Source: a virus (lineage: Duplodnaviria > Heunggongvirae > Uroviricota > Caudoviricetes). Taken from it: 64,000 nucleotides of DNA. The position numbers and the translations under genes were made by a program. The stretch lies in the IMG/VR virus record IMGVR_UViG_2687453424_000001; one strand, given 5' to 3'. Below are positions 32,256-64,000 of the stretch, piece after piece. Below the pieces are notes generated by a model, which worked only from the letters and a program-made list of their open reading frames with translations, made no database searches and had not been told where the DNA came from. Numbering within the stretch: the stretch's first letter is position 1; every line of letters starts with the position of its first letter.

Positions 32256-32276
32256 TCAATCAATCAATCAATCAAT
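32256..32276. repeat. (TCAA)n microsatellite
   Basis: tcaatcaatcaatcaatcaatt; coordinates approximate. Confidence 0.8.
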
Positions 32277-33539
32277 TGAAAAGAAAAAGAGAGAACCAAG
32301 AGTTTATATAAGAAAGTACTGGAAATCTCAATTATAAAAATAGGTTTCTCTTGCATTTTTCATATGATACATCATATGGTCCCAATGTTCATCCTTAACA
32401 TTATTGATTAGTGATTAAAACCGAAAGCAAAGCAAGTTCAAATCAATGCCAGAAAAGACAATCAAATCAATTGGAAAATGGCTGGCAAGCTTTCCTTTCA
32501 TTGAATTATTTTTATTTCCCTTAAGATTTCAATGACATAAAACGTGGGTTTTGGCCATGCCGCAGCTTTGATCACGATTTGGCAGAACATGAATCTTGCG
32601 TGATGGTTCTGTGAAAACTAATCAATAATGAGTTTCAAAAAGTCTGCGCCCCAAAAAATCCAAAGCCTTTGGATAACTATGCCGACATGCAAAGGAAACC
32701 AATAAAAAAAAAAAAGAAACATCATGATTAATTAATTCTCTCTTAACTTACTTTACATATGCACATGAAGTTCATAAGAGAAACATACATATCCTTGTCA
32801 GACCACTGCTGGCCAAACCGACATTATGTATATCCTAAATTCATTGTTTGGTCGACTTGTTCTTGGCCACAGAATTCATCTGATATCCTCTTCAACCTGT
32901 CTAGTCTAGTTCTTTTTTCTGTCCTTTTCTTCTTCGTAGAGTGAAAAATCAATCGACATTGGAATCTTCATCAATAGAGAATTCCTAATAAAAAATATCT
33001 CGGGATATATAGTGTTATTCATTACTGATGTATAATTTAATAAAAAAAATTTATTAATAAAAATATAACGTCAAATCAAATGAGTCGGTGTTAAAATTTT
33101 TAGACAAAAATTTCCTTCAAAAATATGTAAGCGAAGGGGAATCCTCTATAAATGTTGGAAGGTGGCATGAAGAATTAGTTCGGATGCTTTCCTTCTTCTA
33201 AATCTTATCCAATTGTTGAAAGGAATAATAATTACAATAATAATAAGAAGAAAAATAAAGTCTAATGGGTTTTGAAAGATGGGAATACATTATACATGTA
33301 CCTTTCCCTCTCCTGGTCCTTTAACCTAAGGCAAAGTGGGCAAGGCTGTAGATTCCATATTCCTCCCTCCTTCCTTCACTTCAAAAGTAAACTTATAACA
33401 CCTAAAAGAAACCTTGTTGGCTTATTGGTATTCTCTTTTGCATTTGCTTGATCAATTTGAATTTTGCTATTAAAAGGTAAATTACATTCAATGAACAAGT
33501 ATTACCTTTTAGAAATACCCGAAAATGAAATCGTTTTTT

Positions 33540-36500: not shown

Positions 36501-37908
36501 NNNNNNNNNNNNNNNNNNNNNNNNNNNNNNNNNNNNNNNNNNNNNNNNNNNNNNNNNNNNNNNNNNNNNNNNNNNNNNNNNNNNNNNNNNNNNNNNNNNN
36601 NNNNNNNNNNNNNNNNNNNNNNNNNNNNNNNNNNNNNNNNNNNNNNNNNNNNNNNNNNNNNNNNNNNNNNNNNNNNNNNNNNNNNNNNNNNNNNNNNNNN
36701 NNNNNNNNNNNNNNNNNNNNNNNNNNNNNNNNNNNNNNNNNNNNNNNNNNNNNNNNNNNNNNNNNNNNNNNNNNNNNNNNNNNNNNNNNNNNNNNNNNNN
36801 NNNNNNNNNNNNNNNNNNNNNNNNNNNNNNNNNNNNNNNNNNNNNNNNNNNNNNNNNNNNNNNNNNNNNNNNNNNNNNNNNNNNNNNNNNNNNNNNNNNN
36901 NNNNNNNNNNNNNNNNNNNNNNNNNNNNNNNNNNNNNNNNNNNNNNNNNNNNNNNNNNNNNNNNNNNNNNNNNNNNNNNNNNNNNNNNNNNNNNNNNNNN
37001 NNNNNNNNNNNNNNNNNNNNNNNNNNNNNNNNNNNNNNNNNNNNNNNNNNNNNNNNNNNNNNNNNNNNNNNNNNNNNNNNNNNNNNNNNNNNNNNNNNNN
37101 NNNNNNNNNNNNNNNNNNNNNNNNNNNNNNNNNNNNNNNNNNNNNNNNNNNNNNNNNNNNNNNNNNNNNNNNNNNNNNNNNNNNNNNNNNNNNNNNNNNN
37201 NNNNNNNNNNNNNNNNNNNNNNNNNNNNNNNNNNNNNNNNNNNNNNNNNNNNNNNNNNNNNNNNNNNNNNNNNNNNNNNNNNNNNNNNNNNNNNNNNNNN
37301 NNNNNNNNNNNNNNNNNNNNNNNNNNNNNNNNNNNNNNNNNNNNNNNNNNNNNNNNNNNNNNNNNNNNNNNNNNNNNNNNNNNNNNNNNNNNNNNNNNNN
37401 NNNNNNNNNNNNNNNNNNNNNNNNNNNNNNNNNNNNNNNNNNNNNNNNNNNNNNNNNNNNNNNNNNNNNNNNNNNNNNNNNNNNNNNNNNNNNNNNNNNN
37501 NNNNNNNNNNNNNNNNNNNNNNNNNNNNNNNNNNNNNNNNNNNNNNNNNNNNNNNNNNNNNNNNNNNNNNNNNNNNNNNNNNNNNNNNNNNNNNNNNNNN
37601 NNNNNNNNNNNNNNNNNNNNNNNNNNNNNNNNNNNNNNNNNNNNNNNNNNNNNNNNNNNNNNNNNNNNNNNNNNNNNNNNNNNNNNNNNNNNNNNNNNNN
37701 NNNNNNNNNNNNNNNNNNNNNNNNNNNNNNNNNNNNNNNNNNNNNNNNNNNNNNNNNNNNNNNNNNNNNNNNNNNNNNNNNNNNNNNNNNNNNNNNNNNN
37801 NNNNNNNNNNNNNNNNNNNNNNNNNNNNNNNNNNNNNNNNNNNNNNNNNNNNNNNNNNNNNNNNNNNNNNNNNNNNNNNNNNNNNNNNNNNNNNNNNNNN
37901 NNNNNNNN
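33540..37908. other. N-run, 4369 bp
   Basis: Continuous n; boundaries confirmed from ORF-track X positions. Confidence 0.99.
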
Positions 37909-38261
37909 TTTTTCATTGACTTTAAAAAAAAAAAACAACCAAATTTTATAGTATCACAAAGGCCAACACATGTCTTCTTCTATAAAGCGGTTGTGGTGGC
38001 CATATACTTATTTATTGCTTAATAGGTCCATGCATCTCATTTGATATGGATGGGTCACCTGACGTGAAAAACATTCATTTTTGGTGTAGCTTTAGGCCGA
38101 CATGATCTGCACCCTTATTTATTAATTCTTTTTAATCACTTAAAAGTTTTGATTCCATGATTTTTCATTTTCCAAATTTCCATTTTTACGTAAAAGATCA
38201 TGAATTAGAAATCATCTTTTGTTACAGAATCAATGTATCCTAACGATTGTTCAAGAAAAAA

Positions 38262-38670
38262 ATTAGGTCAAAATACCTAAAAAGTCCCTATATTCATGTA
38301 TTTTGTTCAATTTAATCCATGTACTCAAAATCGTAACATTTTTATCCTTTAATTTTGAAAATTGTTTCAATTTAGTCCCTCCTTCTAACTACATCTAATT
38401 TTACCTTTTAAATTAAAAGATGACATCAATAATGACATCAACGCTGACGTGACATATTTTGATGACGTGGTACCTTCACGATGACGTGGCATGACACGTG
38501 ATACCGACATGATGACTGGGCAGTGCCATCATTGGAACTAAATTTTGTGCTACGTCATAAGAATTAAATTGAATAAAAATATATAGTATAGAGACTAAAT
38601 TGAACATAAATGAAATGTTGAGGGACTAAATTAAAAAATATTTAAAAAATAGTAAATCTTTAAGTAGATG
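38262..38670. repeat. Left arm of a long inverted repeat running into the N-run
   Basis: Reverse complement of 38262-38670 aligns with 42171-42548 at roughly 85-90% identity (for example agggactaaatt...ttgaataaaaatatatagtatagagactaaattgaac against aatttagtccctcaacatctcaattttatttaatttagtctctatattatatatttttattcaa; also the gatgacgtgg/ccacgtcatc blocks). Outer end approximate. Confidence 0.85.
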
Positions 38671-41600
38671 NNNNNNNNNNNNNNNNNNNNNNNNNNNNNN
38701 NNNNNNNNNNNNNNNNNNNNNNNNNNNNNNNNNNNNNNNNNNNNNNNNNNNNNNNNNNNNNNNNNNNNNNNNNNNNNNNNNNNNNNNNNNNNNNNNNNNN
38801 NNNNNNNNNNNNNNNNNNNNNNNNNNNNNNNNNNNNNNNNNNNNNNNNNNNNNNNNNNNNNNNNNNNNNNNNNNNNNNNNNNNNNNNNNNNNNNNNNNNN
38901 NNNNNNNNNNNNNNNNNNNNNNNNNNNNNNNNNNNNNNNNNNNNNNNNNNNNNNNNNNNNNNNNNNNNNNNNNNNNNNNNNNNNNNNNNNNNNNNNNNNN
39001 NNNNNNNNNNNNNNNNNNNNNNNNNNNNNNNNNNNNNNNNNNNNNNNNNNNNNNNNNNNNNNNNNNNNNNNNNNNNNNNNNNNNNNNNNNNNNNNNNNNN
39101 NNNNNNNNNNNNNNNNNNNNNNNNNNNNNNNNNNNNNNNNNNNNNNNNNNNNNNNNNNNNNNNNNNNNNNNNNNNNNNNNNNNNNNNNNNNNNNNNNNNN
39201 NNNNNNNNNNNNNNNNNNNNNNNNNNNNNNNNNNNNNNNNNNNNNNNNNNNNNNNNNNNNNNNNNNNNNNNNNNNNNNNNNNNNNNNNNNNNNNNNNNNN
39301 NNNNNNNNNNNNNNNNNNNNNNNNNNNNNNNNNNNNNNNNNNNNNNNNNNNNNNNNNNNNNNNNNNNNNNNNNNNNNNNNNNNNNNNNNNNNNNNNNNNN
39401 NNNNNNNNNNNNNNNNNNNNNNNNNNNNNNNNNNNNNNNNNNNNNNNNNNNNNNNNNNNNNNNNNNNNNNNNNNNNNNNNNNNNNNNNNNNNNNNNNNNN
39501 NNNNNNNNNNNNNNNNNNNNNNNNNNNNNNNNNNNNNNNNNNNNNNNNNNNNNNNNNNNNNNNNNNNNNNNNNNNNNNNNNNNNNNNNNNNNNNNNNNNN
39601 NNNNNNNNNNNNNNNNNNNNNNNNNNNNNNNNNNNNNNNNNNNNNNNNNNNNNNNNNNNNNNNNNNNNNNNNNNNNNNNNNNNNNNNNNNNNNNNNNNNN
39701 NNNNNNNNNNNNNNNNNNNNNNNNNNNNNNNNNNNNNNNNNNNNNNNNNNNNNNNNNNNNNNNNNNNNNNNNNNNNNNNNNNNNNNNNNNNNNNNNNNNN
39801 NNNNNNNNNNNNNNNNNNNNNNNNNNNNNNNNNNNNNNNNNNNNNNNNNNNNNNNNNNNNNNNNNNNNNNNNNNNNNNNNNNNNNNNNNNNNNNNNNNNN
39901 NNNNNNNNNNNNNNNNNNNNNNNNNNNNNNNNNNNNNNNNNNNNNNNNNNNNNNNNNNNNNNNNNNNNNNNNNNNNNNNNNNNNNNNNNNNNNNNNNNNN
40001 NNNNNNNNNNNNNNNNNNNNNNNNNNNNNNNNNNNNNNNNNNNNNNNNNNNNNNNNNNNNNNNNNNNNNNNNNNNNNNNNNNNNNNNNNNNNNNNNNNNN
40101 NNNNNNNNNNNNNNNNNNNNNNNNNNNNNNNNNNNNNNNNNNNNNNNNNNNNNNNNNNNNNNNNNNNNNNNNNNNNNNNNNNNNNNNNNNNNNNNNNNNN
40201 NNNNNNNNNNNNNNNNNNNNNNNNNNNNNNNNNNNNNNNNNNNNNNNNNNNNNNNNNNNNNNNNNNNNNNNNNNNNNNNNNNNNNNNNNNNNNNNNNNNN
40301 NNNNNNNNNNNNNNNNNNNNNNNNNNNNNNNNNNNNNNNNNNNNNNNNNNNNNNNNNNNNNNNNNNNNNNNNNNNNNNNNNNNNNNNNNNNNNNNNNNNN
40401 NNNNNNNNNNNNNNNNNNNNNNNNNNNNNNNNNNNNNNNNNNNNNNNNNNNNNNNNNNNNNNNNNNNNNNNNNNNNNNNNNNNNNNNNNNNNNNNNNNNN
40501 NNNNNNNNNNNNNNNNNNNNNNNNNNNNNNNNNNNNNNNNNNNNNNNNNNNNNNNNNNNNNNNNNNNNNNNNNNNNNNNNNNNNNNNNNNNNNNNNNNNN
40601 NNNNNNNNNNNNNNNNNNNNNNNNNNNNNNNNNNNNNNNNNNNNNNNNNNNNNNNNNNNNNNNNNNNNNNNNNNNNNNNNNNNNNNNNNNNNNNNNNNNN
40701 NNNNNNNNNNNNNNNNNNNNNNNNNNNNNNNNNNNNNNNNNNNNNNNNNNNNNNNNNNNNNNNNNNNNNNNNNNNNNNNNNNNNNNNNNNNNNNNNNNNN
40801 NNNNNNNNNNNNNNNNNNNNNNNNNNNNNNNNNNNNNNNNNNNNNNNNNNNNNNNNNNNNNNNNNNNNNNNNNNNNNNNNNNNNNNNNNNNNNNNNNNNN
40901 NNNNNNNNNNNNNNNNNNNNNNNNNNNNNNNNNNNNNNNNNNNNNNNNNNNNNNNNNNNNNNNNNNNNNNNNNNNNNNNNNNNNNNNNNNNNNNNNNNNN
41001 NNNNNNNNNNNNNNNNNNNNNNNNNNNNNNNNNNNNNNNNNNNNNNNNNNNNNNNNNNNNNNNNNNNNNNNNNNNNNNNNNNNNNNNNNNNNNNNNNNNN
41101 NNNNNNNNNNNNNNNNNNNNNNNNNNNNNNNNNNNNNNNNNNNNNNNNNNNNNNNNNNNNNNNNNNNNNNNNNNNNNNNNNNNNNNNNNNNNNNNNNNNN
41201 NNNNNNNNNNNNNNNNNNNNNNNNNNNNNNNNNNNNNNNNNNNNNNNNNNNNNNNNNNNNNNNNNNNNNNNNNNNNNNNNNNNNNNNNNNNNNNNNNNNN
41301 NNNNNNNNNNNNNNNNNNNNNNNNNNNNNNNNNNNNNNNNNNNNNNNNNNNNNNNNNNNNNNNNNNNNNNNNNNNNNNNNNNNNNNNNNNNNNNNNNNNN
41401 NNNNNNNNNNNNNNNNNNNNNNNNNNNNNNNNNNNNNNNNNNNNNNNNNNNNNNNNNNNNNNNNNNNNNNNNNNNNNNNNNNNNNNNNNNNNNNNNNNNN
41501 NNNNNNNNNNNNNNNNNNNNNNNNNNNNNNNNNNNNNNNNNNNNNNNNNNNNNNNNNNNNNNNNNNNNNNNNNNNNNNNNNNNNNNNNNNNNNNNNNNNN

Positions 41601-42170
41601 NNNNNNNNNNNNNNNNNNNNNNNNNNNNNNNNNNNNNNNNNNNNNNNNNNNNNNNNNNNNNNNNNNNNNNNNNNNNNNNNNNNNNNNNNNNNNNNNNNNN
41701 NNNNNNNNNNNNNNNNNNNNNNNNNNNNNNNNNNNNNNNNNNNNNNNNNNNNNNNNNNNNNNNNNNNNNNNNNNNNNNNNNNNNNNNNNNNNNNNNNNNN
41801 NNNNNNNNNNNNNNNNNNNNNNNNNNNNNNNNNNNNNNNNNNNNNNNNNNNNNNNNNNNNNNNNNNNNNNNNNNNNNNNNNNNNNNNNNNNNNNNNNNNN
41901 NNNNNNNNNNNNNNNNNNNNNNNNNNNNNNNNNNNNNNNNNNNNNNNNNNNNNNNNNNNNNNNNNNNNNNNNNNNNNNNNNNNNNNNNNNNNNNNNNNNN
42001 NNNNNNNNNNNNNNNNNNNNNNNNNNNNNNNNNNNNNNNNNNNNNNNNNNNNNNNNNNNNNNNNNNNNNNNNNNNNNNNNNNNNNNNNNNNNNNNNNNNN
42101 NNNNNNNNNNNNNNNNNNNNNNNNNNNNNNNNNNNNNNNNNNNNNNNNNNNNNNNNNNNNNNNNNNNNNN
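38671..42170. other. N-run, 3500 bp, bracketed by the inverted repeat arms
   Basis: Continuous n. Confidence 0.99.
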
Positions 42171-42548
42171 AATTTAGTCCCTCAACATCTCAATTTTATT
42201 TAATTTAGTCTCTATATTATATATTTTTATTCAATCTACTCCTCATAATGTGACACAAAAAATTTTTTTGAAAATTTTTTGATTTGCCACGTTAGCACGT
42301 TGATGTCACGTCATCAAGTCGATGCCACGTGACATACCACGTCATCAAAATATGTCGCATCAATGCTGATGTCACTATTGACATCATCTTTTTAACTGCA
42401 AAATTGGATGTTGTTAGAGAGAAAGACTAAATTGAAGCAATTATTAAAATTAAAGGACTAAAATGTTACAATTTTGAGTATAAAGATTAAATTAAACAAA
42501 ATGTATGGTACAAAGACTTTTCAAGTATTTTGACTAAAAAATTAAGTT
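42171..42548. repeat. Right arm of the long inverted repeat
   Basis: See left arm; similarity stops about 42548. Confidence 0.85.
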
Positions 42549-43394
42549 AAACTGAAATCTAGAGATATTTTTGACCATATTACGATAAAATAAAGTATAT
42601 TAACAAAAGAAAAGTCAATAATGCATAATGGTGTGATTATTTTGGACAATACCTATAATTTAGATTCAATAAAAGCAGCAATAAAGTATTTCACTTTCCA
42701 TAAGAAGAGAAAATTAATTTTTTATAAGAATGTGATCGAACATGCTCGTATATATGTGTTATAAGTGCCATTCATTAGGAGTAAATTATACTGATAGACT
42801 TATATTATTTATAATTTAAAATTTTGGATGAATTACATTTTCATATTGTATGATTTTTTAATATTTTTATCACTTATTCATATAATCATGAATCCTATTA
42901 TACAAAAAAAAAATACTATTGTAAGTGTTTTCTTAATTAATTGGCATCGAACCAAGACTTGTTTAAACATTGTCGTAACGTGCGGGTCCGGGAACCCGAC
43001 CGTCAGACGTGATGTGAAAAACTCTAAATAAAACTAGGAGTCGCCACCAATCTTTTTACTAGGTGCGATTGGTCACTTATTGACTCGATTCTAATCGATG
43101 AAACTTTAAATTAATTTTAAGCCCACCGAAAAAAATCTTAAACTGGTCTACGATTTTCTAGATTTAGGCTCGGGAGTACGGTTACGCTCGGGGAATGACT
43201 AGCACCCCTGGACACCCTTTCCATGAATGGTACTATTCTTAGATTATCCTATTAGGCTTTAATTTTTAAATTCGTTATATTTTCTTAGTTATTATTCACT
43301 TATTTTATTTCCTATTTAACCTAAAATAGAATGCAAATGTGAGGCAAGATGAAATGTATGGTGTGAGATAAAAAATACCGAACGAATAACCTTT

Positions 43395-43720
43395 TATCGA
43401 AGATATTTTCCTGAATCCGCCCATCATACTGGTGAGACTCGAGGTATTCTCTCACCTAGGGAATTATCCAAGAAATCCGCCTTCGCAAATTCAACGAATA
43501 ATTCTCATCATCGGAGTTATCATACGTTTTTCTTTAAAAATAATGTTTTCGTGCACAATAGACCTAATATGAGTCAAAACCATTTATTAAAGATATTTTT
43601 CGAGTCCTCTCATCATACTGGTGGGATCTTGGGACACATCTTCACTTAGGGAACTTTTCGAGGGATACCCGCCTTCGTAAGATCCTAGGAAGATCCCATC
43701 ATCGGGGCTTAAACTCAATA
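43395..43720. repeat. Tandem duplication, two copies of a roughly 190-bp unit, about 75% identical
   Basis: ...tatcgaagatattttcctgaatccgcccatcatactggtgagactcgagg...catcatcggagttatc repeated as ...tattaaagatatttttcgagtcctctcatcatactggtgggatcttggg...catcatcggggcttaa. Confidence 0.7.
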
Positions 43721-43811
43721 TATTTATATGCAATGATATGCATGATGCAACGTATATATGTGCTATACTAATGCAATTATCTTATTTTTTTTATTTATTA
43801 TTATTTAATTA

Positions 43812-44812
43812 TTATTTTCTATTTTATATTACTATTTAAAGTAGGGACCGATAATCTGATCTAATTGATTAATTTGTTCGTACAATTATTCTCTTTTAAG
43901 AGTATGCATTGGAAATTAAAAATTCATCAGACAATATAAATTTGACAATTTATTTTCGTTTTTAAGAATTTTTTGATAAATATCTCATCTTATACCGTAT
44001 GTACCGAGCTCAAGACTCGAAATTCAACTCATTGTATTCTTGCAATTGGATCTTGTAGCAAGCAAAGGAGTGGAACATTTTGCATTGCAAAGGGAAGTCC
44101 GACAGTAAAACAAAGCTCTTGGAGTAAAAGTCCAAAGAAGCTTGCAGACAAACAAAAAAGGAAACTCATGCAACGTACATGTACTACTATTTATAGTGTC
44201 ATATATTCTTTTTTTTTTAAGAATATTTTACGATACAACAGTTAATTAAGAGAGACGAATTGTATCATTCACTTGAAAGATTTATTTGTTATTCTACAAT
44301 GTTTTATTTTTCGGGTTTTTGTTATCTTTATGAATCTTAAGATTTAGACTCGATTTCTCTTGAAGATCATTATATGTTAATTGGTTTTTGAAGTAATAAA
44401 CTCTATTAAATGTAAAGATGTAAACCTTTGACAAATGATAATCTAACTAATTAGGGAAAGAATAGGTATTAAAAGAAAAAGAAAAGCACAACACTGCACT
44501 GCACTGCTAATGTTTACTCTAGCTTCTACATGTTAATCAATTACAAGAACAAGTCCAGACAAGACATATTTCTATATGTTACAAATTCAAAGCTCTCTCT
44601 TGTCAAAAGATAAGAGCATCGATTTTTTCTTTAATTTCTAATTAATATGAACATTAGTGAGTATTTTTGCTATTATTGTTTTACAATTTTTTCAACTCTC
44701 TTTTTTGACCTTTTAACATTCCTATATCAATATGGTGGACTGAAAATTGGATGACCATGTGGTTGTATGATTGATTATTGTTTCGTTTACTTATAAATGT
44801 ATGTGATGAAAA
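43812..44812. repeat. Copy 1 of a ~1 kb direct repeat
   Basis: Aligns colinearly with about 51910-52945 at roughly 90% identity, offset about 8.1 kb. The ORF-track entries 43973..44245 and 52147..52380 are the same sequence in the two copies. Confidence 0.85.
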
Positions 44813-45460
44813 TAGGGTTCACGTGTAATTCATTTTATTTCTAATTTTTAAGATTTTGCATTGATTTTGTGTCATGTCTTGAGTTTGATTTTGATTGCAA
44901 TGTTGATTTTGATTGCAATGATCTCTATGGTTTATATTGGGCTACACTTTGTATAGATATATGCGATCATATCATGAGTCTTATTCAAAAATAAAGTAGG
45001 AAAAGAATAAAAGGGTCTCATTCTTTCCTTGACTTCCTTGCATAGAACACTAAAATGATGCTAAAAACTGTCGATTTCCTTGTCCTTTTAACAAAATTAT
45101 TTCAATGGGATTTCAATATCTCGAAAGCTGTGTGGCACATGAAGTTTCCTAATAGAAATTGGTGGGTTTTGATGCATCATTTTCGGAAGGTGAATGCTAC
45201 GTCCTTTGTGCAAACTTTTTGACACTACAAAAAAATTGAGTTTTAATCACACTTTTTTAGACGATATATTTTTTTGTATAATAAAATTTTAAAAAGTGTA
45301 GCTATTTAAACTTTTAACTTCACTTTTTTTACATTTAGTAGCAATATAAAAAAGTACAACCTTTGCTAATGTATGCAATTCCTATCGTTATATTTTATTC
45401 ATAATGCATCTAAAAATTTATATAATGAGATTAGATATACAAAAATGTTCTAAAAAATAT

Positions 45461-48400
45461 NNNNNNNNNNNNNNNNNNNNNNNNNNNNNNNNNNNNNNNN
45501 NNNNNNNNNNNNNNNNNNNNNNNNNNNNNNNNNNNNNNNNNNNNNNNNNNNNNNNNNNNNNNNNNNNNNNNNNNNNNNNNNNNNNNNNNNNNNNNNNNNN
45601 NNNNNNNNNNNNNNNNNNNNNNNNNNNNNNNNNNNNNNNNNNNNNNNNNNNNNNNNNNNNNNNNNNNNNNNNNNNNNNNNNNNNNNNNNNNNNNNNNNNN
45701 NNNNNNNNNNNNNNNNNNNNNNNNNNNNNNNNNNNNNNNNNNNNNNNNNNNNNNNNNNNNNNNNNNNNNNNNNNNNNNNNNNNNNNNNNNNNNNNNNNNN
45801 NNNNNNNNNNNNNNNNNNNNNNNNNNNNNNNNNNNNNNNNNNNNNNNNNNNNNNNNNNNNNNNNNNNNNNNNNNNNNNNNNNNNNNNNNNNNNNNNNNNN
45901 NNNNNNNNNNNNNNNNNNNNNNNNNNNNNNNNNNNNNNNNNNNNNNNNNNNNNNNNNNNNNNNNNNNNNNNNNNNNNNNNNNNNNNNNNNNNNNNNNNNN
46001 NNNNNNNNNNNNNNNNNNNNNNNNNNNNNNNNNNNNNNNNNNNNNNNNNNNNNNNNNNNNNNNNNNNNNNNNNNNNNNNNNNNNNNNNNNNNNNNNNNNN
46101 NNNNNNNNNNNNNNNNNNNNNNNNNNNNNNNNNNNNNNNNNNNNNNNNNNNNNNNNNNNNNNNNNNNNNNNNNNNNNNNNNNNNNNNNNNNNNNNNNNNN
46201 NNNNNNNNNNNNNNNNNNNNNNNNNNNNNNNNNNNNNNNNNNNNNNNNNNNNNNNNNNNNNNNNNNNNNNNNNNNNNNNNNNNNNNNNNNNNNNNNNNNN
46301 NNNNNNNNNNNNNNNNNNNNNNNNNNNNNNNNNNNNNNNNNNNNNNNNNNNNNNNNNNNNNNNNNNNNNNNNNNNNNNNNNNNNNNNNNNNNNNNNNNNN
46401 NNNNNNNNNNNNNNNNNNNNNNNNNNNNNNNNNNNNNNNNNNNNNNNNNNNNNNNNNNNNNNNNNNNNNNNNNNNNNNNNNNNNNNNNNNNNNNNNNNNN
46501 NNNNNNNNNNNNNNNNNNNNNNNNNNNNNNNNNNNNNNNNNNNNNNNNNNNNNNNNNNNNNNNNNNNNNNNNNNNNNNNNNNNNNNNNNNNNNNNNNNNN
46601 NNNNNNNNNNNNNNNNNNNNNNNNNNNNNNNNNNNNNNNNNNNNNNNNNNNNNNNNNNNNNNNNNNNNNNNNNNNNNNNNNNNNNNNNNNNNNNNNNNNN
46701 NNNNNNNNNNNNNNNNNNNNNNNNNNNNNNNNNNNNNNNNNNNNNNNNNNNNNNNNNNNNNNNNNNNNNNNNNNNNNNNNNNNNNNNNNNNNNNNNNNNN
46801 NNNNNNNNNNNNNNNNNNNNNNNNNNNNNNNNNNNNNNNNNNNNNNNNNNNNNNNNNNNNNNNNNNNNNNNNNNNNNNNNNNNNNNNNNNNNNNNNNNNN
46901 NNNNNNNNNNNNNNNNNNNNNNNNNNNNNNNNNNNNNNNNNNNNNNNNNNNNNNNNNNNNNNNNNNNNNNNNNNNNNNNNNNNNNNNNNNNNNNNNNNNN
47001 NNNNNNNNNNNNNNNNNNNNNNNNNNNNNNNNNNNNNNNNNNNNNNNNNNNNNNNNNNNNNNNNNNNNNNNNNNNNNNNNNNNNNNNNNNNNNNNNNNNN
47101 NNNNNNNNNNNNNNNNNNNNNNNNNNNNNNNNNNNNNNNNNNNNNNNNNNNNNNNNNNNNNNNNNNNNNNNNNNNNNNNNNNNNNNNNNNNNNNNNNNNN
47201 NNNNNNNNNNNNNNNNNNNNNNNNNNNNNNNNNNNNNNNNNNNNNNNNNNNNNNNNNNNNNNNNNNNNNNNNNNNNNNNNNNNNNNNNNNNNNNNNNNNN
47301 NNNNNNNNNNNNNNNNNNNNNNNNNNNNNNNNNNNNNNNNNNNNNNNNNNNNNNNNNNNNNNNNNNNNNNNNNNNNNNNNNNNNNNNNNNNNNNNNNNNN
47401 NNNNNNNNNNNNNNNNNNNNNNNNNNNNNNNNNNNNNNNNNNNNNNNNNNNNNNNNNNNNNNNNNNNNNNNNNNNNNNNNNNNNNNNNNNNNNNNNNNNN
47501 NNNNNNNNNNNNNNNNNNNNNNNNNNNNNNNNNNNNNNNNNNNNNNNNNNNNNNNNNNNNNNNNNNNNNNNNNNNNNNNNNNNNNNNNNNNNNNNNNNNN
47601 NNNNNNNNNNNNNNNNNNNNNNNNNNNNNNNNNNNNNNNNNNNNNNNNNNNNNNNNNNNNNNNNNNNNNNNNNNNNNNNNNNNNNNNNNNNNNNNNNNNN
47701 NNNNNNNNNNNNNNNNNNNNNNNNNNNNNNNNNNNNNNNNNNNNNNNNNNNNNNNNNNNNNNNNNNNNNNNNNNNNNNNNNNNNNNNNNNNNNNNNNNNN
47801 NNNNNNNNNNNNNNNNNNNNNNNNNNNNNNNNNNNNNNNNNNNNNNNNNNNNNNNNNNNNNNNNNNNNNNNNNNNNNNNNNNNNNNNNNNNNNNNNNNNN
47901 NNNNNNNNNNNNNNNNNNNNNNNNNNNNNNNNNNNNNNNNNNNNNNNNNNNNNNNNNNNNNNNNNNNNNNNNNNNNNNNNNNNNNNNNNNNNNNNNNNNN
48001 NNNNNNNNNNNNNNNNNNNNNNNNNNNNNNNNNNNNNNNNNNNNNNNNNNNNNNNNNNNNNNNNNNNNNNNNNNNNNNNNNNNNNNNNNNNNNNNNNNNN
48101 NNNNNNNNNNNNNNNNNNNNNNNNNNNNNNNNNNNNNNNNNNNNNNNNNNNNNNNNNNNNNNNNNNNNNNNNNNNNNNNNNNNNNNNNNNNNNNNNNNNN
48201 NNNNNNNNNNNNNNNNNNNNNNNNNNNNNNNNNNNNNNNNNNNNNNNNNNNNNNNNNNNNNNNNNNNNNNNNNNNNNNNNNNNNNNNNNNNNNNNNNNNN
48301 NNNNNNNNNNNNNNNNNNNNNNNNNNNNNNNNNNNNNNNNNNNNNNNNNNNNNNNNNNNNNNNNNNNNNNNNNNNNNNNNNNNNNNNNNNNNNNNNNNNN

Positions 48401-50264
48401 NNNNNNNNNNNNNNNNNNNNNNNNNNNNNNNNNNNNNNNNNNNNNNNNNNNNNNNNNNNNNNNNNNNNNNNNNNNNNNNNNNNNNNNNNNNNNNNNNNNN
48501 NNNNNNNNNNNNNNNNNNNNNNNNNNNNNNNNNNNNNNNNNNNNNNNNNNNNNNNNNNNNNNNNNNNNNNNNNNNNNNNNNNNNNNNNNNNNNNNNNNNN
48601 NNNNNNNNNNNNNNNNNNNNNNNNNNNNNNNNNNNNNNNNNNNNNNNNNNNNNNNNNNNNNNNNNNNNNNNNNNNNNNNNNNNNNNNNNNNNNNNNNNNN
48701 NNNNNNNNNNNNNNNNNNNNNNNNNNNNNNNNNNNNNNNNNNNNNNNNNNNNNNNNNNNNNNNNNNNNNNNNNNNNNNNNNNNNNNNNNNNNNNNNNNNN
48801 NNNNNNNNNNNNNNNNNNNNNNNNNNNNNNNNNNNNNNNNNNNNNNNNNNNNNNNNNNNNNNNNNNNNNNNNNNNNNNNNNNNNNNNNNNNNNNNNNNNN
48901 NNNNNNNNNNNNNNNNNNNNNNNNNNNNNNNNNNNNNNNNNNNNNNNNNNNNNNNNNNNNNNNNNNNNNNNNNNNNNNNNNNNNNNNNNNNNNNNNNNNN
49001 NNNNNNNNNNNNNNNNNNNNNNNNNNNNNNNNNNNNNNNNNNNNNNNNNNNNNNNNNNNNNNNNNNNNNNNNNNNNNNNNNNNNNNNNNNNNNNNNNNNN
49101 NNNNNNNNNNNNNNNNNNNNNNNNNNNNNNNNNNNNNNNNNNNNNNNNNNNNNNNNNNNNNNNNNNNNNNNNNNNNNNNNNNNNNNNNNNNNNNNNNNNN
49201 NNNNNNNNNNNNNNNNNNNNNNNNNNNNNNNNNNNNNNNNNNNNNNNNNNNNNNNNNNNNNNNNNNNNNNNNNNNNNNNNNNNNNNNNNNNNNNNNNNNN
49301 NNNNNNNNNNNNNNNNNNNNNNNNNNNNNNNNNNNNNNNNNNNNNNNNNNNNNNNNNNNNNNNNNNNNNNNNNNNNNNNNNNNNNNNNNNNNNNNNNNNN
49401 NNNNNNNNNNNNNNNNNNNNNNNNNNNNNNNNNNNNNNNNNNNNNNNNNNNNNNNNNNNNNNNNNNNNNNNNNNNNNNNNNNNNNNNNNNNNNNNNNNNN
49501 NNNNNNNNNNNNNNNNNNNNNNNNNNNNNNNNNNNNNNNNNNNNNNNNNNNNNNNNNNNNNNNNNNNNNNNNNNNNNNNNNNNNNNNNNNNNNNNNNNNN
49601 NNNNNNNNNNNNNNNNNNNNNNNNNNNNNNNNNNNNNNNNNNNNNNNNNNNNNNNNNNNNNNNNNNNNNNNNNNNNNNNNNNNNNNNNNNNNNNNNNNNN
49701 NNNNNNNNNNNNNNNNNNNNNNNNNNNNNNNNNNNNNNNNNNNNNNNNNNNNNNNNNNNNNNNNNNNNNNNNNNNNNNNNNNNNNNNNNNNNNNNNNNNN
49801 NNNNNNNNNNNNNNNNNNNNNNNNNNNNNNNNNNNNNNNNNNNNNNNNNNNNNNNNNNNNNNNNNNNNNNNNNNNNNNNNNNNNNNNNNNNNNNNNNNNN
49901 NNNNNNNNNNNNNNNNNNNNNNNNNNNNNNNNNNNNNNNNNNNNNNNNNNNNNNNNNNNNNNNNNNNNNNNNNNNNNNNNNNNNNNNNNNNNNNNNNNNN
50001 NNNNNNNNNNNNNNNNNNNNNNNNNNNNNNNNNNNNNNNNNNNNNNNNNNNNNNNNNNNNNNNNNNNNNNNNNNNNNNNNNNNNNNNNNNNNNNNNNNNN
50101 NNNNNNNNNNNNNNNNNNNNNNNNNNNNNNNNNNNNNNNNNNNNNNNNNNNNNNNNNNNNNNNNNNNNNNNNNNNNNNNNNNNNNNNNNNNNNNNNNNNN
50201 NNNNNNNNNNNNNNNNNNNNNNNNNNNNNNNNNNNNNNNNNNNNNNNNNNNNNNNNNNNNNNNN
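45461..50264. other. N-run, 4804 bp
   Basis: Continuous n; boundaries confirmed from ORF-track X positions. Confidence 0.99.
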
Positions 50265-50514
50265 GAGTTCTTTTTTTAAATGGATTCCATGCATAAGGTG
50301 TTTTTGACTATAAGCTTTTTTATAATTTGAACTGTTTTTTACCAAGAGAATTAAAATTTGGACAAAATTACCTTTAATGAAATCGACCCATTTATTTGGC
50401 TCCTCACCTTAACCCAAAACCTATTAATGGGTCAAGTATGTTTAAGTTTGCGTCTCAAGCCGACTCATATTCTTTAAGCTTTTCTTGCCAAACTATTCAT
50501 TTCTAGAGTATTCT

Positions 50515-50660
50515 TTACTAAAAAAAAAAGTTTAAGCATTTTGAGCATTTTACAGCAGTTTTTGATACACAAAGAAAATCTGTGAGTGTTTTGAGTATTT
50601 TTAAGCATTTTGGAGTAATTTTTAGTATATGAAGAAAAACTTTTGAACATTTTGAGCATT
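50515..50660. repeat. Tandem repeat of a roughly 65-bp unit (agcattttgagcatttt...)
   Basis: Two to three degenerate units; this is why the minus-strand ORF 50474..50659 reads KMLK...KMLK. Confidence 0.6.
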
Positions 50661-50769
50661 ATTTGTCAAGTAGGCATATTCGTTAATTATGTTATTAAAT
50701 AGAATATGGTGTAACGTTTAAAGTTATTGATCTTATTAAATGGAATGCAGTAGTTTTGATGATTTTTAG

Positions 50770-51090
50770 AATTACGTGATTAGTTTTTAGGTATTGCGTG
50801 ACTAACTTTAGATATTGCATAACTGACTTTGGGTATTGCGTGACTAGTTTTTGATATGACATTGCGTAATTAGTGTTTGACAAAGCATTACGAGACTAGT
50901 TGATAGACATTACGTGACTAGTTAATAAGGCGTTGCATGACTAGTTAGTAAGGCATTGTGTGACTAAGGCATTATTTAAAAATTAGTCACGTAATACCTA
51001 AAACTAATTACGTAATACCTAAAAATCAATCACGCAGTGATTAAATCACATAATGTCTAAAAATCGGTCTCGCAGTACTTAAAAATCAGT
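50770..51090. repeat. Compound array: about 9 direct copies of a 22-bp motif followed by about 5 copies in inverted orientation
   Basis: Direct copies gtattgcgtgactagttttt / gacattacgtgactagtt / ggcgttgcatgactagtt..., then aaaattagtcacgtaataccta / aaactaattacgtaatacc / aatcacgcagtgatt in reverse orientation. Coordinates approximate. Confidence 0.7.
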
Positions 51091-51909
51091 CTAATCAATT
51101 TCAACTCCTTAACTTTGGGCTTTTATGAATAAACTAATAAACTCAATAACCTAAAATACATATTTTTTTTTGCTAAGCCATGAAATTATGCATTTCATAA
51201 AAGATAAGTTACAAAACTCCATAATCCTCCAAAGCAAGACAAAATAAATCCCTATCATGAGGGCCTTGCTCACTCTCCTTATGCAAAAACAAAATATACT
51301 CATTTACAAAATATTTCTTGAACAATTTAAATTCAAAATTTTACAAAAAAAATCAAAATCCCTAGCAAGCATGCTTAACAATCATCTCAATATCAGACAC
51401 AACAAAACTGTAAACCACCATAAAACCCATCAAACATACTTTAGCTATTTCTTTTCCCTGAGCCCATCACCTTAACCAATCTAATCCAACTCATCAACAT
51501 AGGCATCTCCATTGCAGCACACGTTTCGAAGCAAGTCATCACCAGAAAGCATCCAATTACCAAATTCATTATGCTGCCTGCAATCACCATAGAAGAGCAA
51601 AATCGCTGTTCATCGTCATTGAAAACCCCAAGATTCATCATCTAAAAAAATAAAACAAAATAAGAAAGAGCTTGATGTCATCTTTGGATGGCGAGATAGA
51701 CAGTATTTGACCAGAAAGAGAAATCAAAATTTAATTTTAAAATTTTTGTTTGCATGGCGGGATAGAGAAAACTGAAATCATTTTAACTTGTCTAAAATTG
51801 TTTAAAAAGTATTGTTGTCAACTCATGTCAAAAATTGATTAAAAATAATTAAAATTATAAAAAATAATATTTTTGAATTGAGCTTAAAAAGAAAGTTATT
51901 TTTCACAAT

Positions 51910-52945
51910 TTTCTCTCTAAATATAAAATATTACTATTTAAAGTAGAGACTGATAATCCAATCTAATTGATTAATTTGTTTGTTCAATTATTCCCTTTTA
52001 AGAGTATGCATTGGAAATTAATAATTCGTCAGACAATATAAATTGGACAATTTATTTTTATTTTTTAGAATTTTTCGATAAATATCTCATCTTATACCAT
52101 ATGTACTGAGCGCAAGACTCGAAATTCAACTTATTGTATTCTTGCAGTGGGAGCTTGTAGCAAGCAAAGGAGTGAAACATTTTGCATTGCAAAGGGAAGT
52201 CCGATACTAAAACAAAGCTCTTGGAGTAAAAGTCCCATACCCTTCCATAGTCGTCCTTCACGCACCCCATCCCCAATGAATTTTGCAGACAAACAAAAAA
52301 GGAAACTCATACAACGTACGTGTACCACTATTTATAGTGTCATATATACTTTTTTAATTTTGTTAGGATACAACAGCTAATTAAAAGAGATGAATTTTAT
52401 GATTCACTTGAAAGATTTACTTGTCATTCTATAATGTTTTATCTTTTGGGTTTTTGTTATCTTTATGAATCGTAAGACTTAGACTCGATTTCTCTTGAAG
52501 ATCATTATATGTTAATTGGTTTTTGAAGTAATAACTCTATTAAATGTAAAGATGTAAACCTTTGAAAAATGATAATCTAACTAATTAGGGAAAGGATAGG
52601 AATTAAAAGAAAAGGAAAAAGAAAAGCACTGCACTGCTATTGTTTACTCTAGCTTCTACATGTTAATCAATTACAAGAACATGGCCAGACAGGACATATT
52701 TCTACATGTTACAAATTCAAAGCTCTCTCTTGTCAAAAGATGAGAGCATCGATTTTTTCTTTAATTTCTAATTAATATGAACATTAGTGAGTATTTTTGC
52801 TATTATTGTTTTACAATTTTTTCAACTCTCTTTTTTGACCTTTTAACATTTCTATATCAATATGGTGGACTGAAAATTGGATGACCACGTGGTTGTATGA
52901 TTGATTCTTGTTTCGTTTACTTATTAATGTGTATGATGAAAGTTG
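51910..52945. repeat. Copy 2 of the ~1 kb direct repeat (carries a roughly 39-bp insertion relative to copy 1)
   Basis: See copy 1. Confidence 0.85.
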
Positions 52946-55627
52946 AAATGACCCAAGGTTAATCAAATCAAAATGAAGTGATTTGCTTGGAAAACAAATT
53001 GCTAAATTTCTTCATGAATCATGATAGCAACCTAGCATGATTAATGTTGCCATTCAAACCATATATGGAATGGGACGACTTTCTCAGTCCAGAAAAAACG
53101 CAGTTTTCATACTAATTAGCTTTGAGTGTCCATTTGTGGAGCATGTTTTTCTGCAGCTGATCTTAATAGAGCCAAAGCCAAAGACACCAAGAAGGCCCTT
53201 GGTCCCCCAATGAACCAGGGCTCGGGGGAGGTCCAGTGTGGAAATGTGTTGGAATTGTGTGGAAGTGTGAACTCCTGGAAATACTTTTGTTCTTTTTTTT
53301 ATTATATATATATAGCCAATTATTTCGTTTCTGCTGCGACAATGTTTTCCAGGAGAACCATGTGTGCTTGTCACTGGCCCCTGTAAGAGTCTCTTTATGG
53401 CCCTTTGGAAAAGCATTGCCTCGTGATGTTGGACGAAGATAAAGAACTTTTTCTGAAAGGGAAATGGGGTGCAAAAAAGTCGTGAGTGCATGTGAACAAG
53501 TTATACAAGTAACCACTAACACTAATCTAGATCGATGACGATGAGTTAAGAATTATACAAGAGCATTTCAATCTTTTCGCCTTCTTAGTGCTTTTGAGTT
53601 TTGACCCTTTTCTCTCTTTTTTTTTGGTTGCTAAAAGTTGCTGTTGAGTATGCATGTTTATCTGAATTCCGCATTGAAAATCTTGGTATTTTGCTCCAAG
53701 GAATTCGTCTCAAGCCTCTTACAATTGAAGAGTTAAAGCAAACCAACCAAATCCCACTACACCTTATCCAAAATTTTTTACTGTGTAAACAATATGAGTT
53801 GCTTTCAATGATTGACCCGTAAACCATTGACGTATCTCGGGTGTTAGTAGGCAATAGCCCCTGAAACTTGACTGAAGATAAACTAATTATAATTTGTCGT
53901 GGTTGTAATTAAAGCAATGATAAAGAAATTCCAAGATGTGTAAATATTCATCTCATTGATTTTATATGATATTAGAACAGATGTTATCTCTATTCATTAT
54001 TTCTTTTACAAACTCTTTTTATAGTTTATATCATATGATAAATCCGTGTTACAAAATTAATTATGAACGAAGAAGCCTTGTTGGTTTCTATTGATCTCAT
54101 GCAGAATCCCGCTGGTTACTCAAAGTATTTCAAGTAGAAATTGATGCAAAAGGACCTTCATAGCCAGCAGCAAGGTGGCGACTGTGACTAATGGTATTTG
54201 TTTTGAAGAGAGAATTTCGGCAAGTCAGGACAGATTTGGCTCCTTCGATGTTGCTTGCAGTGCATGATAAAGACTTGAGAGGCACAACCTTTATATTCTT
54301 TTTGCGGCCTAACAAAAGACTTTGAAGCATCTATGCAAATTACGAACAAAGCGTGAGGAGGAAAGATCTGCGTTTGTTCTGCTTGTCTCAACAAACTCCC
54401 ATCCCTTTCCGCTTCTTTTGTACATTGGATTGCGCATGCCTCGAGACGACGTAATATCTTGGCTACAGTACAAGGAAGAAGATTCGAAGTGCTATTATTT
54501 TCTGCCCACATAGCTGGGTCAACATGTCAACGGTGAAAGCAGATCAGAAGAGAGAATCAAAGAAAAATGCTGGATGGCTTTGGCTTTTGGGTTTTACTGA
54601 TTTCAGAAGCATCATCTTCATCTAGCGATGCACCAATAATTGTCACATGTACAAAGTCATCAACATTCACAGCAAGGCAATCAAGTTTGAACCGAGAACT
54701 GATTGCAAGTTAGACCTTCCTTATGCCTGCCGTAGGCTAGAAAGATTCGGACAGAATTAACAGTTATATTTAACCTGCCGCTGAATCAACATTGAACCTG
54801 CCTACACACAAGAATCTACCTCTGTCGAAAACTCTATCGACGCTAACGGAACAGTGGGCAAAAATCCACCTTCCAAGCTAATCTTGGGTTAGATAGATAT
54901 GGTCAGAACTCTGAATAACGATCAAGCTTGCCCCAAGACCGACGCAAGAGTTAATCTTGGGCTGCAAAAACAGTCAGAATAATGATCAGCCAGCGCCCAT
55001 CACCAACACAAGAATTAAGCACTGTCGGCTGTCGCTGACTTTTCGAAACCTATGGTCCAGTGGACTACTAAACAGTCTATACTGAAGCTTTATTCGACAA
55101 TGGGCTGCAATCTGCCTTCCGAGCCGATCATGGACTGGAAAGGTGCGGCCAGAGCCTCCCAAGTGTGACGGCTGTAACGCAATTGGCAAGTGCTGAAATG
55201 ACCCTACAAAGTGCCAGACATGTCCAAGCATGCCGATGTAAACTTCTATTTGGAACCCCAAACGCAAGAGGCAAGAGACCATATTTTCTTTAGACAAGAA
55301 TATATTAAGCACTACACAATTCAATCCCATGCTGTCAACCAGAAACAATAATCAAAAAAGGTTGGTAGTGGTAAGAGAGAATCATACACGCCTAACTCTA
55401 TGGCCACAAGGTGTTTTCCACGATTAACATTAGCAGAGACAAACAAGATGAACTTGGCCCCTCCATAATTCCTTGTAAAACCACCAGGCAAAAAAGACCC
55501 CATTCAATGCAAAGAGCCCTCCTCCGCAAATAATCACAAGAGAAAGCAAAGTCCAAAGATATACAAGGAATGATTCGGTACTTTTTCTTGCAAGGATGAA
55601 CAAAACAAAGAACTGGTATGATGATGC

Positions 55628-60275
<4,648 letters not shown>

Positions 60276-63200: not shown

Positions 63201-64000
63201 NNNNNNNNNNNNNNNNNNNNNNNNNNNNNNNNNNNNNNNNNNNNNNNNNNNNNNNNNNNNNNNNNNNNNNNNNNNNNNNNNNNNNNNNNNNNNNNNNNNN
63301 NNNNNNNNNNNNNNNNNNNNNNNNNNNNNNNNNNNNNNNNNNNNNNNNNNNNNNNNNNNNNNNNNNNNNNNNNNNNNNNNNNNNNNNNNNNNNNNNNNNN
63401 NNNNNNNNNNNNNNNNNNNNNNNNNNNNNNNNNNNNNNNNNNNNNNNNNNNNNNNNNNNNNNNNNNNNNNNNNNNNNNNNNNNNNNNNNNNNNNNNNNNN
63501 NNNNNNNNNNNNNNNNNNNNNNNNNNNNNNNNNNNNNNNNNNNNNNNNNNNNNNNNNNNNNNNNNNNNNNNNNNNNNNNNNNNNNNNNNNNNNNNNNNNN
63601 NNNNNNNNNNNNNNNNNNNNNNNNNNNNNNNNNNNNNNNNNNNNNNNNNNNNNNNNNNNNNNNNNNNNNNNNNNNNNNNNNNNNNNNNNNNNNNNNNNNN
63701 NNNNNNNNNNNNNNNNNNNNNNNNNNNNNNNNNNNNNNNNNNNNNNNNNNNNNNNNNNNNNNNNNNNNNNNNNNNNNNNNNNNNNNNNNNNNNNNNNNNN
63801 NNNNNNNNNNNNNNNNNNNNNNNNNNNNNNNNNNNNNNNNNNNNNNNNNNNNNNNNNNNNNNNNNNNNNNNNNNNNNNNNNNNNNNNNNNNNNNNNNNNN
63901 NNNNNNNNNNNNNNNNNNNNNNNNNNNNNNNNNNNNNNNNNNNNNNNNNNNNNNNNNNNNNNNNNNNNNNNNNNNNNNNNNNNNNNNNNNNNNNNNNNNN
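60276..64000. other. N-run, at least 3725 bp, reaching the window end
   Basis: Continuous n immediately 5' of CDPK codon 3. Confidence 0.99.

What the first reader, a model, noticed from the sequence alone, without database searches (positions are those of the whole stretch)
43812..52945. ~1 kb direct repeats about 8.1 kb apart flanking an N-run: LTR-retrotransposon-like unit or local duplication
Two colinear copies at roughly 90% identity lie in the same orientation and enclose about 7 kb, of which 4.8 kb is N. Two long direct repeats around a multi-kb interior is the layout of an old LTR retrotransposon. I could not find a primer-binding site, polypurine tract or TG..CA ends, so a dispersed repeat or segmental duplication is equally possible.
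Basis: partly seen in the sequence, partly recalled or inferred. Interest (0 to 1): 0.45.

Follow-up and report, generated by a model that had tools for sequence, protein, structure and literature searches.

The report
Cacao tandem duplication, not a retrotransposon
The two 1-kb repeats are real, but they are the ends of an ordinary ~1.9-kb tandem duplication in a cacao intergenic region that small transposons later split, and the "7-kb interior" comes mostly from an oversized assembly gap.

Summary
The window is Theobroma cacao DNA lying between a CDPK13 gene and a 2OG-oxygenase gene. The direct repeat is real: 43826-44811 versus 51928-52941, 88.7% identity with gaps and 93% at aligned bases.

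Five gap-free cacao assemblies cover parts of this region, and one of them is 99.93% identical to the window.
- In the four that span the 4804-base N-run, it corresponds to only 264 bp. The copies are therefore about 3.6 kb apart, with a fully readable 2.58-kb interior.
- That interior has no gag/pol or any other Pfam domain.
- The repeats lack TG..CA ends, a primer-binding site, a polypurine tract and a flanking target-site duplication.

Homology runs beyond the "LTRs". Three blocks that follow copy 1 (x2, x1, g) also precede copy 1 in the other assemblies. This gives two head-to-tail units, [x2 x1 g A][x2 x1 g A], at 6.2% divergence.

Copy 2 has a sharp left edge because a 1.65-kb element with a 9-bp target-site duplication (TAAATATAA) inserted there. 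A 315-bp CACTA-like MITE and a 1.2-kb insert also interrupt the units.

The window also lacks 4.0 kb just left of copy 1, probably through misassembly.

Verdict: the LTR reading is refuted, the local-duplication reading is supported, and the feature is ordinary.

The parts
43777..43825 (.). AT-rich low-complexity tract at the right end of the left flank (U). A 3998-bp segment (E) lies here in Matina, Criollo and SCA-6, and at least its A1-proximal 2.7 kb in two further assemblies, but it is absent from the window (break at 43825/43826).
   Evidence: TRF finds TTATTTATTA x5.7. Window 42171-43827 = MatRC 16305-17967 and window 43826-45460 = MatRC 21966-23601. Criollo and SCA-6 are colinear with Matina across the break.
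43826..44811 (.). Repeat copy 1 (A1), the 3' part of tandem-duplication unit 1.
   Evidence: In gap-free assemblies it is preceded by blocks g', x1' and x2', which are homologous to the DNA that follows it.
44812..44884 (.). Block x2, the start of unit 2. The head-to-tail duplication junction is at 44811|44812 (...GATGAAA|ATAGGGTTCACG).
   Evidence: 97.2% identical to x2' (MatRC 20162-20233), which begins at a unique flank W|TAGGGTTCACG.
44900..45220 (.). Block x1 of unit 2.
   Evidence: 93.8% over 322 columns to x1' (L004 22110-22430 = MatRC 21458-21778), left of copy 1 in the other assemblies.
45223..45460 (.). Left part of a 315-bp CACTA-like MITE (TIR CACTACAA..., 3-bp TSD TGA), cut off by the gap. 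It is absent from unit 1.
   Evidence: Ends, TSD and the empty site in unit 1 are shown.
45461..50264 (.). N-run of 4804. In four gap-free assemblies it equals 264 bp: the rest of the MITE, block g (184 bp, 94% to g') and the left copy of the 9-bp TSD.
50265..51917 (.). Insertion Y, about 1.65 kb and non-coding, with internal 21-26-bp tandem repeats and a short inverted repeat. It sits between block g and copy 2 and creates copy 2's sharp left edge.
   Evidence: Uninterrupted g'|A1 junction compared with g|Y and Y|A2 junctions. No significant TIR. Tandem repeats. No Pfam hit.
51918..51926 (.). Right copy of the 9-bp target-site duplication TAAATATAA of insertion Y. The left copy lies in the N-run.
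   Evidence: Homology between the units resumes at 51918.
51928..52941 (.). Repeat copy 2 (A2), the 3' part of unit 2, with a 39-bp indel relative to A1. It ends at unique DNA (GATGAAA|GTTGAAATG) about 2.7 kb downstream of the CDPK13 stop codon.

Best explanation
The two 1-kb repeats are the right-hand parts of two head-to-tail units of a local tandem duplication. The ancestral unit was about 1.9 kb, in block order x2-x1-g-A. It lies in non-coding DNA downstream of the CDPK13 gene on Theobroma cacao chromosome record CM001883.1. After the duplication, three insertions broke up the units. A 1.65-kb non-coding element (Y) with a 9-bp target-site duplication landed between g and A in unit 2. A 315-bp CACTA-like MITE with a 3-bp duplication also landed in unit 2. 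A 1.2-kb segment entered unit 1. In the window the picture is further distorted. The scaffold gap between the copies is declared as 4804 N but holds 264 bp in gap-free assemblies. The 4.0 kb carrying the rest of unit 1 is missing just left of copy 1. Together these make a plain duplication look like LTR-interior-LTR. No function is implied: it is neutral intergenic structural variation fixed in cacao. Shown directly: species identity, gap sizes, block colinearity, junction sequences, target-site duplications, and absence of protein domains. Inferred: the order of events, an age of roughly 2.5-5 My (K2P 0.065 with commonly used plant rates of 1.3e-8 or 7e-9 per site per year), and that the missing 4 kb is a misassembly rather than a real deletion.
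For: Species and locus. The spliced CDPK13 and 2OG-oxygenase proteins from the window are exactly T. cacao EOY07185.1 and EOY07187.1. The window is 99.93% identical to Matina 1-6, with 2 mismatches in 10 kb.

Gap size. The N-run equals 264 bp in L004, L005, L006 and L007.

Tandem units. Colinear blocks are x2 97.2%, x1 93.8%, g 94.0%, A 88.7% with gaps. With the MITE and Y removed, unit 2 aligns to unit 1 as one 1536-column HSP at 90% in four cacao genotypes. Overall there are 96 differences in 1550 aligned bases.

Junctions. W|TAGGGTTCACG is the unique flank and start of unit 1. GATGAAA|ATAGGGTTCACG joins the end of unit 1 to the start of unit 2. GATGAAA|GTTGAAATG is the end of unit 2 and the unique flank.

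Insertions. Y is flanked by TAAATATAA on both sides, against an uninterrupted site in unit 1. The MITE has CACTACAA... inverted ends, a TGA duplication, and an empty site in unit 1.

No coding capacity. There are zero Pfam hits at E<=1 for six-frame ORF pieces of the interior, of the extra 4 kb and of the repeat. The only shared ORF differs at about 20% of residues, with most base changes altering the protein.

Misassembly clue. The contig after the gap begins at the first base of Y. The window's U|A1 join lies 1-2 bp from the g'|A1 point. Both are the branch points after the duplicated g block.
Against: The source assembly of the window is unknown. A real 4.8-kb insertion, or a real 4-kb deletion, in that particular genotype cannot be strictly excluded. 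The 1224-bp insert in unit 1 has no clear target-site duplication. Y has no significant terminal inverted repeats, so its class is unresolved. Divergence is somewhat uneven along the unit, 2.8% to 7.1%. Genome-wide copy number of the unit could not be measured because no cacao genome search was available.
Confidence: 0.9

Rival explanations
1. An old LTR retrotransposon, autonomous or non-autonomous (TRIM/LARD-like), whose LTRs are the two 1-kb repeats.
For: Two direct repeats of about 1 kb in the same orientation enclose an interior. A short purine run, AAAAAGAAAG, lies about 30-40 bp upstream of copy 2.
Against: The real interior is 2578 bp and has no Pfam domain. The termini are ATATTACT...GATGAAA on one strand and TTTCATC...AGTAATAT on the other, with no TG..CA. 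No TGG-initiated PBS follows copy 1, and nothing equivalent is present on the other strand. The bases directly before copy 2 are the TSD of another insertion, not a PPT. The flanking 5-mers differ. Homology extends left of 'LTR 1' into g', x1' and x2', matching the 'interior', which an LTR element cannot produce.
Confidence: 0.02
2. Two independent nearby insertions of one dispersed repeat family (solo LTRs or a non-autonomous transposon of 1-1.9 kb).
For: Both visible copies have sharp ends in the window. Genome-wide copy number could not be tested.
Against: There are only two copies in about 44 kb of gap-free cacao sequence, and none in the Gossypium or Hibiscus CDPK13 loci. The copies have no terminal inverted repeats and no per-copy target-site duplication. 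The sharp left end of copy 2 is explained by the Y insertion, and the right end of copy 1 abuts the start of the next unit with no spacer. No translated relative exists among 5.8 billion proteins, and a 38-mer from the repeat gave no hit in metagenome contigs; both are weak evidence.
Confidence: 0.05
3. The window shows a true genotype-specific structure: a real 4.8-kb insertion at the gap and a real 4-kb deletion left of copy 1.
For: Total length from U to Y is similar in both versions: 6439 bp in the window against 5898 bp in Matina. This means the declared gap could stand for real missing DNA. The deletion breakpoint lies in AT-rich low-complexity DNA.
Against: The window differs from Matina 1-6 by only 2 mismatches and a few indels per 10 kb. 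All five gap-free cacao assemblies examined, covering different parts of the region, share one structure. The other two N-runs checked are also oversized, 4369 N for 42 bp and 3500 N for 1171 bp. Contig ends coincide with repeat branch points, a MITE, and the arms of an inverted repeat, as expected for assembly breaks. Even if this rival were true, the repeats would still be tandem-duplication units.
Confidence: 0.12

Closest known systems
Local tandem (segmental) duplication of intergenic DNA with nested transposon insertions
   Same: Two adjacent head-to-tail units carry the same blocks in the same order and orientation. Each outer end meets a unique flank. Divergence is similar across blocks. 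The interruptions carry their own target-site duplications, and the paralogous unit shows the empty site.
   Different: Nothing unusual. The unit is non-coding, and one insert (1224 bp) has no recognisable insertion signature.
LTR retrotransposons (Ty1/copia, Ty3/gypsy) and non-autonomous derivatives (TRIM, LARD)
   Same: Two direct repeats of about 1 kb flank an interior, and they diverge by a few percent as aged LTRs do.
   Different: No TG..CA ends, no PBS, no PPT, no 4-6-bp flanking duplication and no gag/pol. The interior is only 2.6 kb, and homology continues outside the repeats.
Mutator-like elements (9-11-bp target-site duplication), as a comparison for insertion Y
   Same: A perfect 9-bp TSD (TAAATATAA) in an AT-rich target, and a non-coding interior as in non-autonomous copies.
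   Different: No significant terminal inverted repeats and no transposase remnant, so membership is not established.
CACTA (En/Spm) derived MITEs, as a comparison for the 315-bp insert
   Same: CACTACAA... inverted termini, a 3-bp TSD, small size and no coding capacity.
   Different: It was not compared with a cacao repeat library, so the family name is unknown.
Scaffold gaps with mis-estimated size, and contig misplacement at collapsed repeats in draft assemblies
   Same: The three internal N-runs checked are far longer than the sequence found in gap-free assemblies. Contig ends fall at repeat branch points.
   Different: The source assembly could not be identified, so the artefact is inferred from comparison and not shown from reads.

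Membership tests
LTR retrotransposon | Internal region encoding gag and pol (RT, RNase H, integrase, protease) | tested here: not met
   The interior is 2578 bp in gap-free assemblies. Six-frame ORF pieces gave 0 Pfam families at E<=1.
LTR retrotransposon | LTR termini 5'-TG...CA-3' | tested here: not met
   The shared ends are ATATTACT...GATGAAA, and the reverse strand is TTTCATC...AGTAATAT.
LTR retrotransposon | 4-6-bp target-site duplication flanking the whole element | tested here: not met
   The left flank is ATTTT in the window or ATAAA in Matina. The right flank is GTTGA.
LTR retrotransposon (incl. TRIM/LARD) | Primer-binding site next to the 5' LTR and polypurine tract next to the 3' LTR | tested here: not met
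   Copy 1 is followed by ATAGGGTTCACGTG, with no TGG... motif. Copy 2 is preceded by TCTCTC+TAAATATAAA, which is the end of Y plus its TSD. The other strand is no better.
LTR retrotransposon | Homology confined to the two LTRs | tested here: not met
   Blocks g', x1' and x2' left of copy 1 match g, x1 and x2 right of copy 1.
Tandem duplication | Two adjacent units with colinear homologous blocks in the same orientation | tested here: met
   x2, x1, g and A lie in the same order in both units. There is a single 1536-column HSP at 90% once the inserts are removed.
Tandem duplication | Head-to-tail junction: the end of unit 1 abuts the start of unit 2, and the outer ends meet unique DNA | tested here: met
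   The junction sequences are shown.
Tandem duplication | An unduplicated state in an outgroup | not testable with these tools
   All cacao genotypes sampled carry both units. The Gossypium and Hibiscus loci lack the whole region. No Herrania sequence was available.
Mutator-like element (insertion Y) | 9-11-bp TSD | tested here: met
   TAAATATAA lies on both sides, and unit 1 shows the intact site.
Mutator-like element (insertion Y) | Terminal inverted repeats | tested here: not met
   The best end-to-end inverted alignment scores 35, equal to the maximum of 200 shuffles.
CACTA-type MITE (315-bp insert) | CACTA... terminal inverted repeats and a 3-bp TSD | tested here: met
   CACTACAAAAAAATT against CACTACAACAAATTT, TGA on both sides, and an empty site in unit 1.

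The most novel reading that the evidence does not exclude
The window's source genotype really differs from the other cacao genomes here, with a multi-kb transposon inside the gap and/or a genuine 4-kb deletion removing the left part of unit 1. That would be a recent structural polymorphism next to CDPK13. Alternatively, the better-conserved last 320 bp of the unit (4% against 8% divergence, p = 0.02) could mark a constrained cacao-specific regulatory or non-coding RNA element present in two copies.
Probability: 0.1. Interest if true: 0.15.

Novelty: already known. Interest (0 to 1): 0.06.

Why it matters
It matters mainly as a caution. A declared gap length and a locally misassembled scaffold turned a plain intergenic tandem duplication into an apparent LTR-interior-LTR layout. 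N-run lengths in draft scaffolds should not be read as real distances. Paired repeats around a gap should be checked against gap-free assemblies before being called retroelements. Biologically the locus is ordinary: a few-million-year-old non-coding duplication fixed in cacao, with nested small transposons.

Tried and rejected
- Rfam at gathering threshold and a tRNA scan of the whole window found nothing.
I used ORF pieces joined by X instead.
- Exact look-ups of two ORFs near or in the repeat (135 aa and 90 aa) found no record.
The exact-sequence cluster look-up then identified the species.
- The first protein search, with only CDPK exon 1, returned only short fragments and no species identification.
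- The haplotype-overlap artefact (the same locus assembled twice across the gap) was rejected. The flanks of the two copies do not align, and both copies exist in the gap-free assemblies.
- Helitron, SINE/LINE and TIR-element readings of the 1-kb repeat were rejected by eye. There are no TC...CTRR ends, no shared poly-A with variable 5' ends, and no terminal inverted repeats.
- A coding reading of the 90-103-aa ORF shared by both copies was rejected. About 20% of residues differ, it has no homologue among 5.8 billion proteins and it has no Pfam hit.
- A metagenome scan for a 38-mer from the repeat returned 0 hits, which is uninformative.
- The idea that the N-runs mask transposons was rejected. 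The last N-run starts inside codon 3 of CDPK13 exon 1.

Full report
**1. The observation**

The window holds five N-runs; the one in question is 45461-50264, 4804 N. Self-BLAST of the window gives one strong direct repeat. It pairs 43826-44811 with 51928-52941 at 88.7% over 1026 columns, E = 0, and no third copy is present. The repeat finder shows five colinear sub-blocks of 90-97% identity. A global alignment shows sharp ends, starting ATATTACTATTTAAAG and ending GATGAAA, with a 39-bp indel. At aligned bases the copies differ at 66 of 975 positions. The repeat is therefore real. The stated geometry is tested in section 3.

**2. Where the window comes from**

ORFs show plant genes: rhodanese, DnaJ, a 2OG-oxygenase and a CDPK.
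- I spliced the CDPK exons using a tblastn guide. The product is exactly Theobroma cacao EOY07185.1.
- The spliced 2OG-oxygenase is exactly EOY07187.1.
- The last N-run begins inside codon 3 of CDPK13 exon 1. The N-runs are therefore arbitrary with respect to biology. They are gaps, not masked transposons.

**3. Reading through the gap**

I fetched the same locus from gap-free cacao assemblies:
- Matina 1-6 CM001883.1 (L004, L008)
- GCA_036851155.1 (L005)
- GCA_036851125.1 (L006)
- SCA-6 GCA_036851095.1 (L007, L011)
- Criollo v2 (L009)

L004 and L008 overlap perfectly and were merged and reverse-complemented to the window's orientation; I call the result MatRC.

The window matches Matina at 99.93%, with 2 mismatches per 10 kb. 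The map is:

| Window | MatRC | Note |
|---|---|---|
| 19226-33539 | 1-14324 | |
| N-run 33540-37908 | 42 bp | |
| 37909-38670 | 14367-15133 | |
| N-run 38671-42170 | 1171 bp | |
| 42171-43827 | 16305-17967 | left flank U |
| (absent) | 17968-21965 | segment E, 3998 bp |
| 43826-45460 | 21966-23601 | |
| N-run 45461-50264 | 264 bp | |
| 50265-60275 | 23866-33881 | |

L005, L006 and L007 give the same 264 bp. Criollo and SCA-6 give the same 42 bp and about 1171 bp, and both contain E. The two copies are therefore really about 3.57 kb apart, with a 2578-bp interior that can be read completely.

**4. What the repeats are**

Self-BLAST of the gap-free sequence shows that homology is not confined to the 1-kb copies.

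| Unit | MatRC layout |
|---|---|
| Unit 1 | x2' 20162-20233, a 1224-bp insert, x1' 21458-21778, g' 21782-21965, A1 21966-22952 |
| Unit 2 | x2 22954-23025, x1 23041-23361, a 315-bp insert, g 23682-23865, Y 23866-25520, A2 25531-26544 |

Block identities are 97.2% (x2), 93.8% (x1), 94.0% (g) and 88.7% with gaps (A). With the two inserts removed, unit 2 aligns to unit 1 as one 1536-column HSP at 90% in four cacao genotypes. No match is found in the Gossypium or Hibiscus CDPK13 loci.

The junction sequences are those of a head-to-tail tandem duplication:
- Unique DNA meets the start of unit 1 at W|TAGGGTTCACG.
- The end of unit 1 meets the start of unit 2 at GATGAAA|ATAGGGTTCACG, which is window 44811|44812.
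- The end of unit 2 meets unique DNA at GATGAAA|GTTGAAATG.

Overall divergence is 96/1550 = 6.2%, K2P 0.065. With commonly used plant substitution rates (my own knowledge, not tested here) this suggests roughly 2.5-5 My. All sampled cacao genotypes carry both units.

**5. Why copy 2 has a sharp left end**

In unit 1 the g'-to-A1 sequence is continuous...GGTATAAATATAAAATATTACT.... In unit 2 the same site is split, as ...GGTATAAATATAA|GAGTTC...(Y)...TCTCTC|TAAATATAAAATATTACT.

Y (window 50265-51917) is therefore an insertion with a perfect 9-bp target-site duplication, TAAATATAA. That length is typical of Mutator-like elements. However, Y has no significant terminal inverted repeats and no coding capacity, so I leave its class open.

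The 315-bp insert is a CACTA-like MITE. It has CACTACAA... inverted ends, a TGA duplication, and an empty site in unit 1. Its left part is window 45223-45460.

The 1224-bp insert in unit 1 shows no clear insertion signature.

**6. Tests of the LTR reading**

| Feature | Result |
|---|---|
| Termini | Not TG..CA on either strand |
| PBS | No TGG... motif follows copy 1 |
| PPT | The bases before copy 2 are the end of Y plus its TSD, not a purine tract |
| Flanking 5-mers | Do not match |
| Coding | Interior, E and the repeat gave zero Pfam families at E<=1 |

The one ORF shared by both copies (90-103 aa) differs at about 20% of residues and has no homologue. In addition, homology extends outside the "LTRs". 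The LTR interpretation is refuted, including for non-autonomous derivatives.

**7. The window's own oddities**

The contig after the gap starts at the first base of Y. The window's U|A1 join lies within 1-2 bp of the g'|A1 point. Both are the branch points immediately after the duplicated g block.
- The contig before the gap ends inside the MITE.
- The gap at 38671-42170 cuts both arms of a long inverted repeat.
- The U end is an AT-rich microsatellite.

This pattern fits contig breaks at collapsed repeats and a misplaced or dropped 4-kb contig. I rate misassembly at about 0.65-0.85 against a real variant. This cannot be proven without the source reads. Either way, the repeats are tandem-duplication units.

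**8. Verdict**

This is an ordinary intergenic tandem duplication with nested small transposons, made to look like a retroelement by an oversized gap and a missing segment. Interest is low.

Noticed in passing
window 33540-37908 and 38671-42170: These N-runs (4369 and 3500 N) correspond to only 42 bp and about 1171 bp in Matina, Criollo and SCA-6. Declared gap sizes in this scaffold are unreliable.
   Followed up: yes
window 43825/43826: A 3998-bp segment (MatRC 17968-21965) is absent from the window. Matina, Criollo and SCA-6 contain all of it, and two further assemblies contain at least its 2.7 kb nearest copy 1. The break lies in an AT-rich microsatellite and within 1-2 bp of a repeat branch point, which suggests misassembly.
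   Followed up: partly
window ~38273-42534 (centre hidden in the N-run); MatRC 14731-16668: A 1.94-kb foldback element with about 740-bp inverted arms (79.7% identical), termini GGTCAAAATA.../...TATTTTGACT, and an apparent 9-bp target-site duplication AAAAAATTA. It looks like a long-TIR, Mutator-like non-autonomous element.
   Followed up: partly
window 60276-64000: The terminal N-run begins inside codon 3 of CDPK13 exon 1. The start codon and promoter of a conserved gene are therefore missing from the window.
   Followed up: yes
window ~51478-52267 (L004 18015-18804): The Matina annotation places an 89-residue gene model with no Pfam hit across the junction of insertion Y and repeat copy 2. 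It is probably a spurious model.
   Followed up: no
L001 (Gossypium mustelinum A04) vs window 21414-60275: In Gossypium the CDPK13 orthologue and an Alfin-like PHD gene are almost adjacent. In cacao they are about 30 kb apart in the window, with a Myb gene model (annotated in Matina, L008), the 2OG-oxygenase, transposons and this duplication in between.
   Followed up: partly
window 43388-43514 and 43578-43705: Two diverged copies (74%) of a roughly 130-bp unit lie in tandem in the left flank U. Their nature is unknown.
   Followed up: no
window 44490-44811 / 52620-52941: The last 320 bp of the repeat is less diverged (13/320) than the rest (53/655), Fisher p = 0.02. This could be rate heterogeneity, gene conversion or weak constraint.
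   Followed up: partly
window 50786-50966: Insertion Y contains an array of 21-26-bp tandem repeats (consensus about GCATTGCGTGACTAGTT...) and a 60-bp inverted repeat (50760-50818 / 50969-51028).
   Followed up: no
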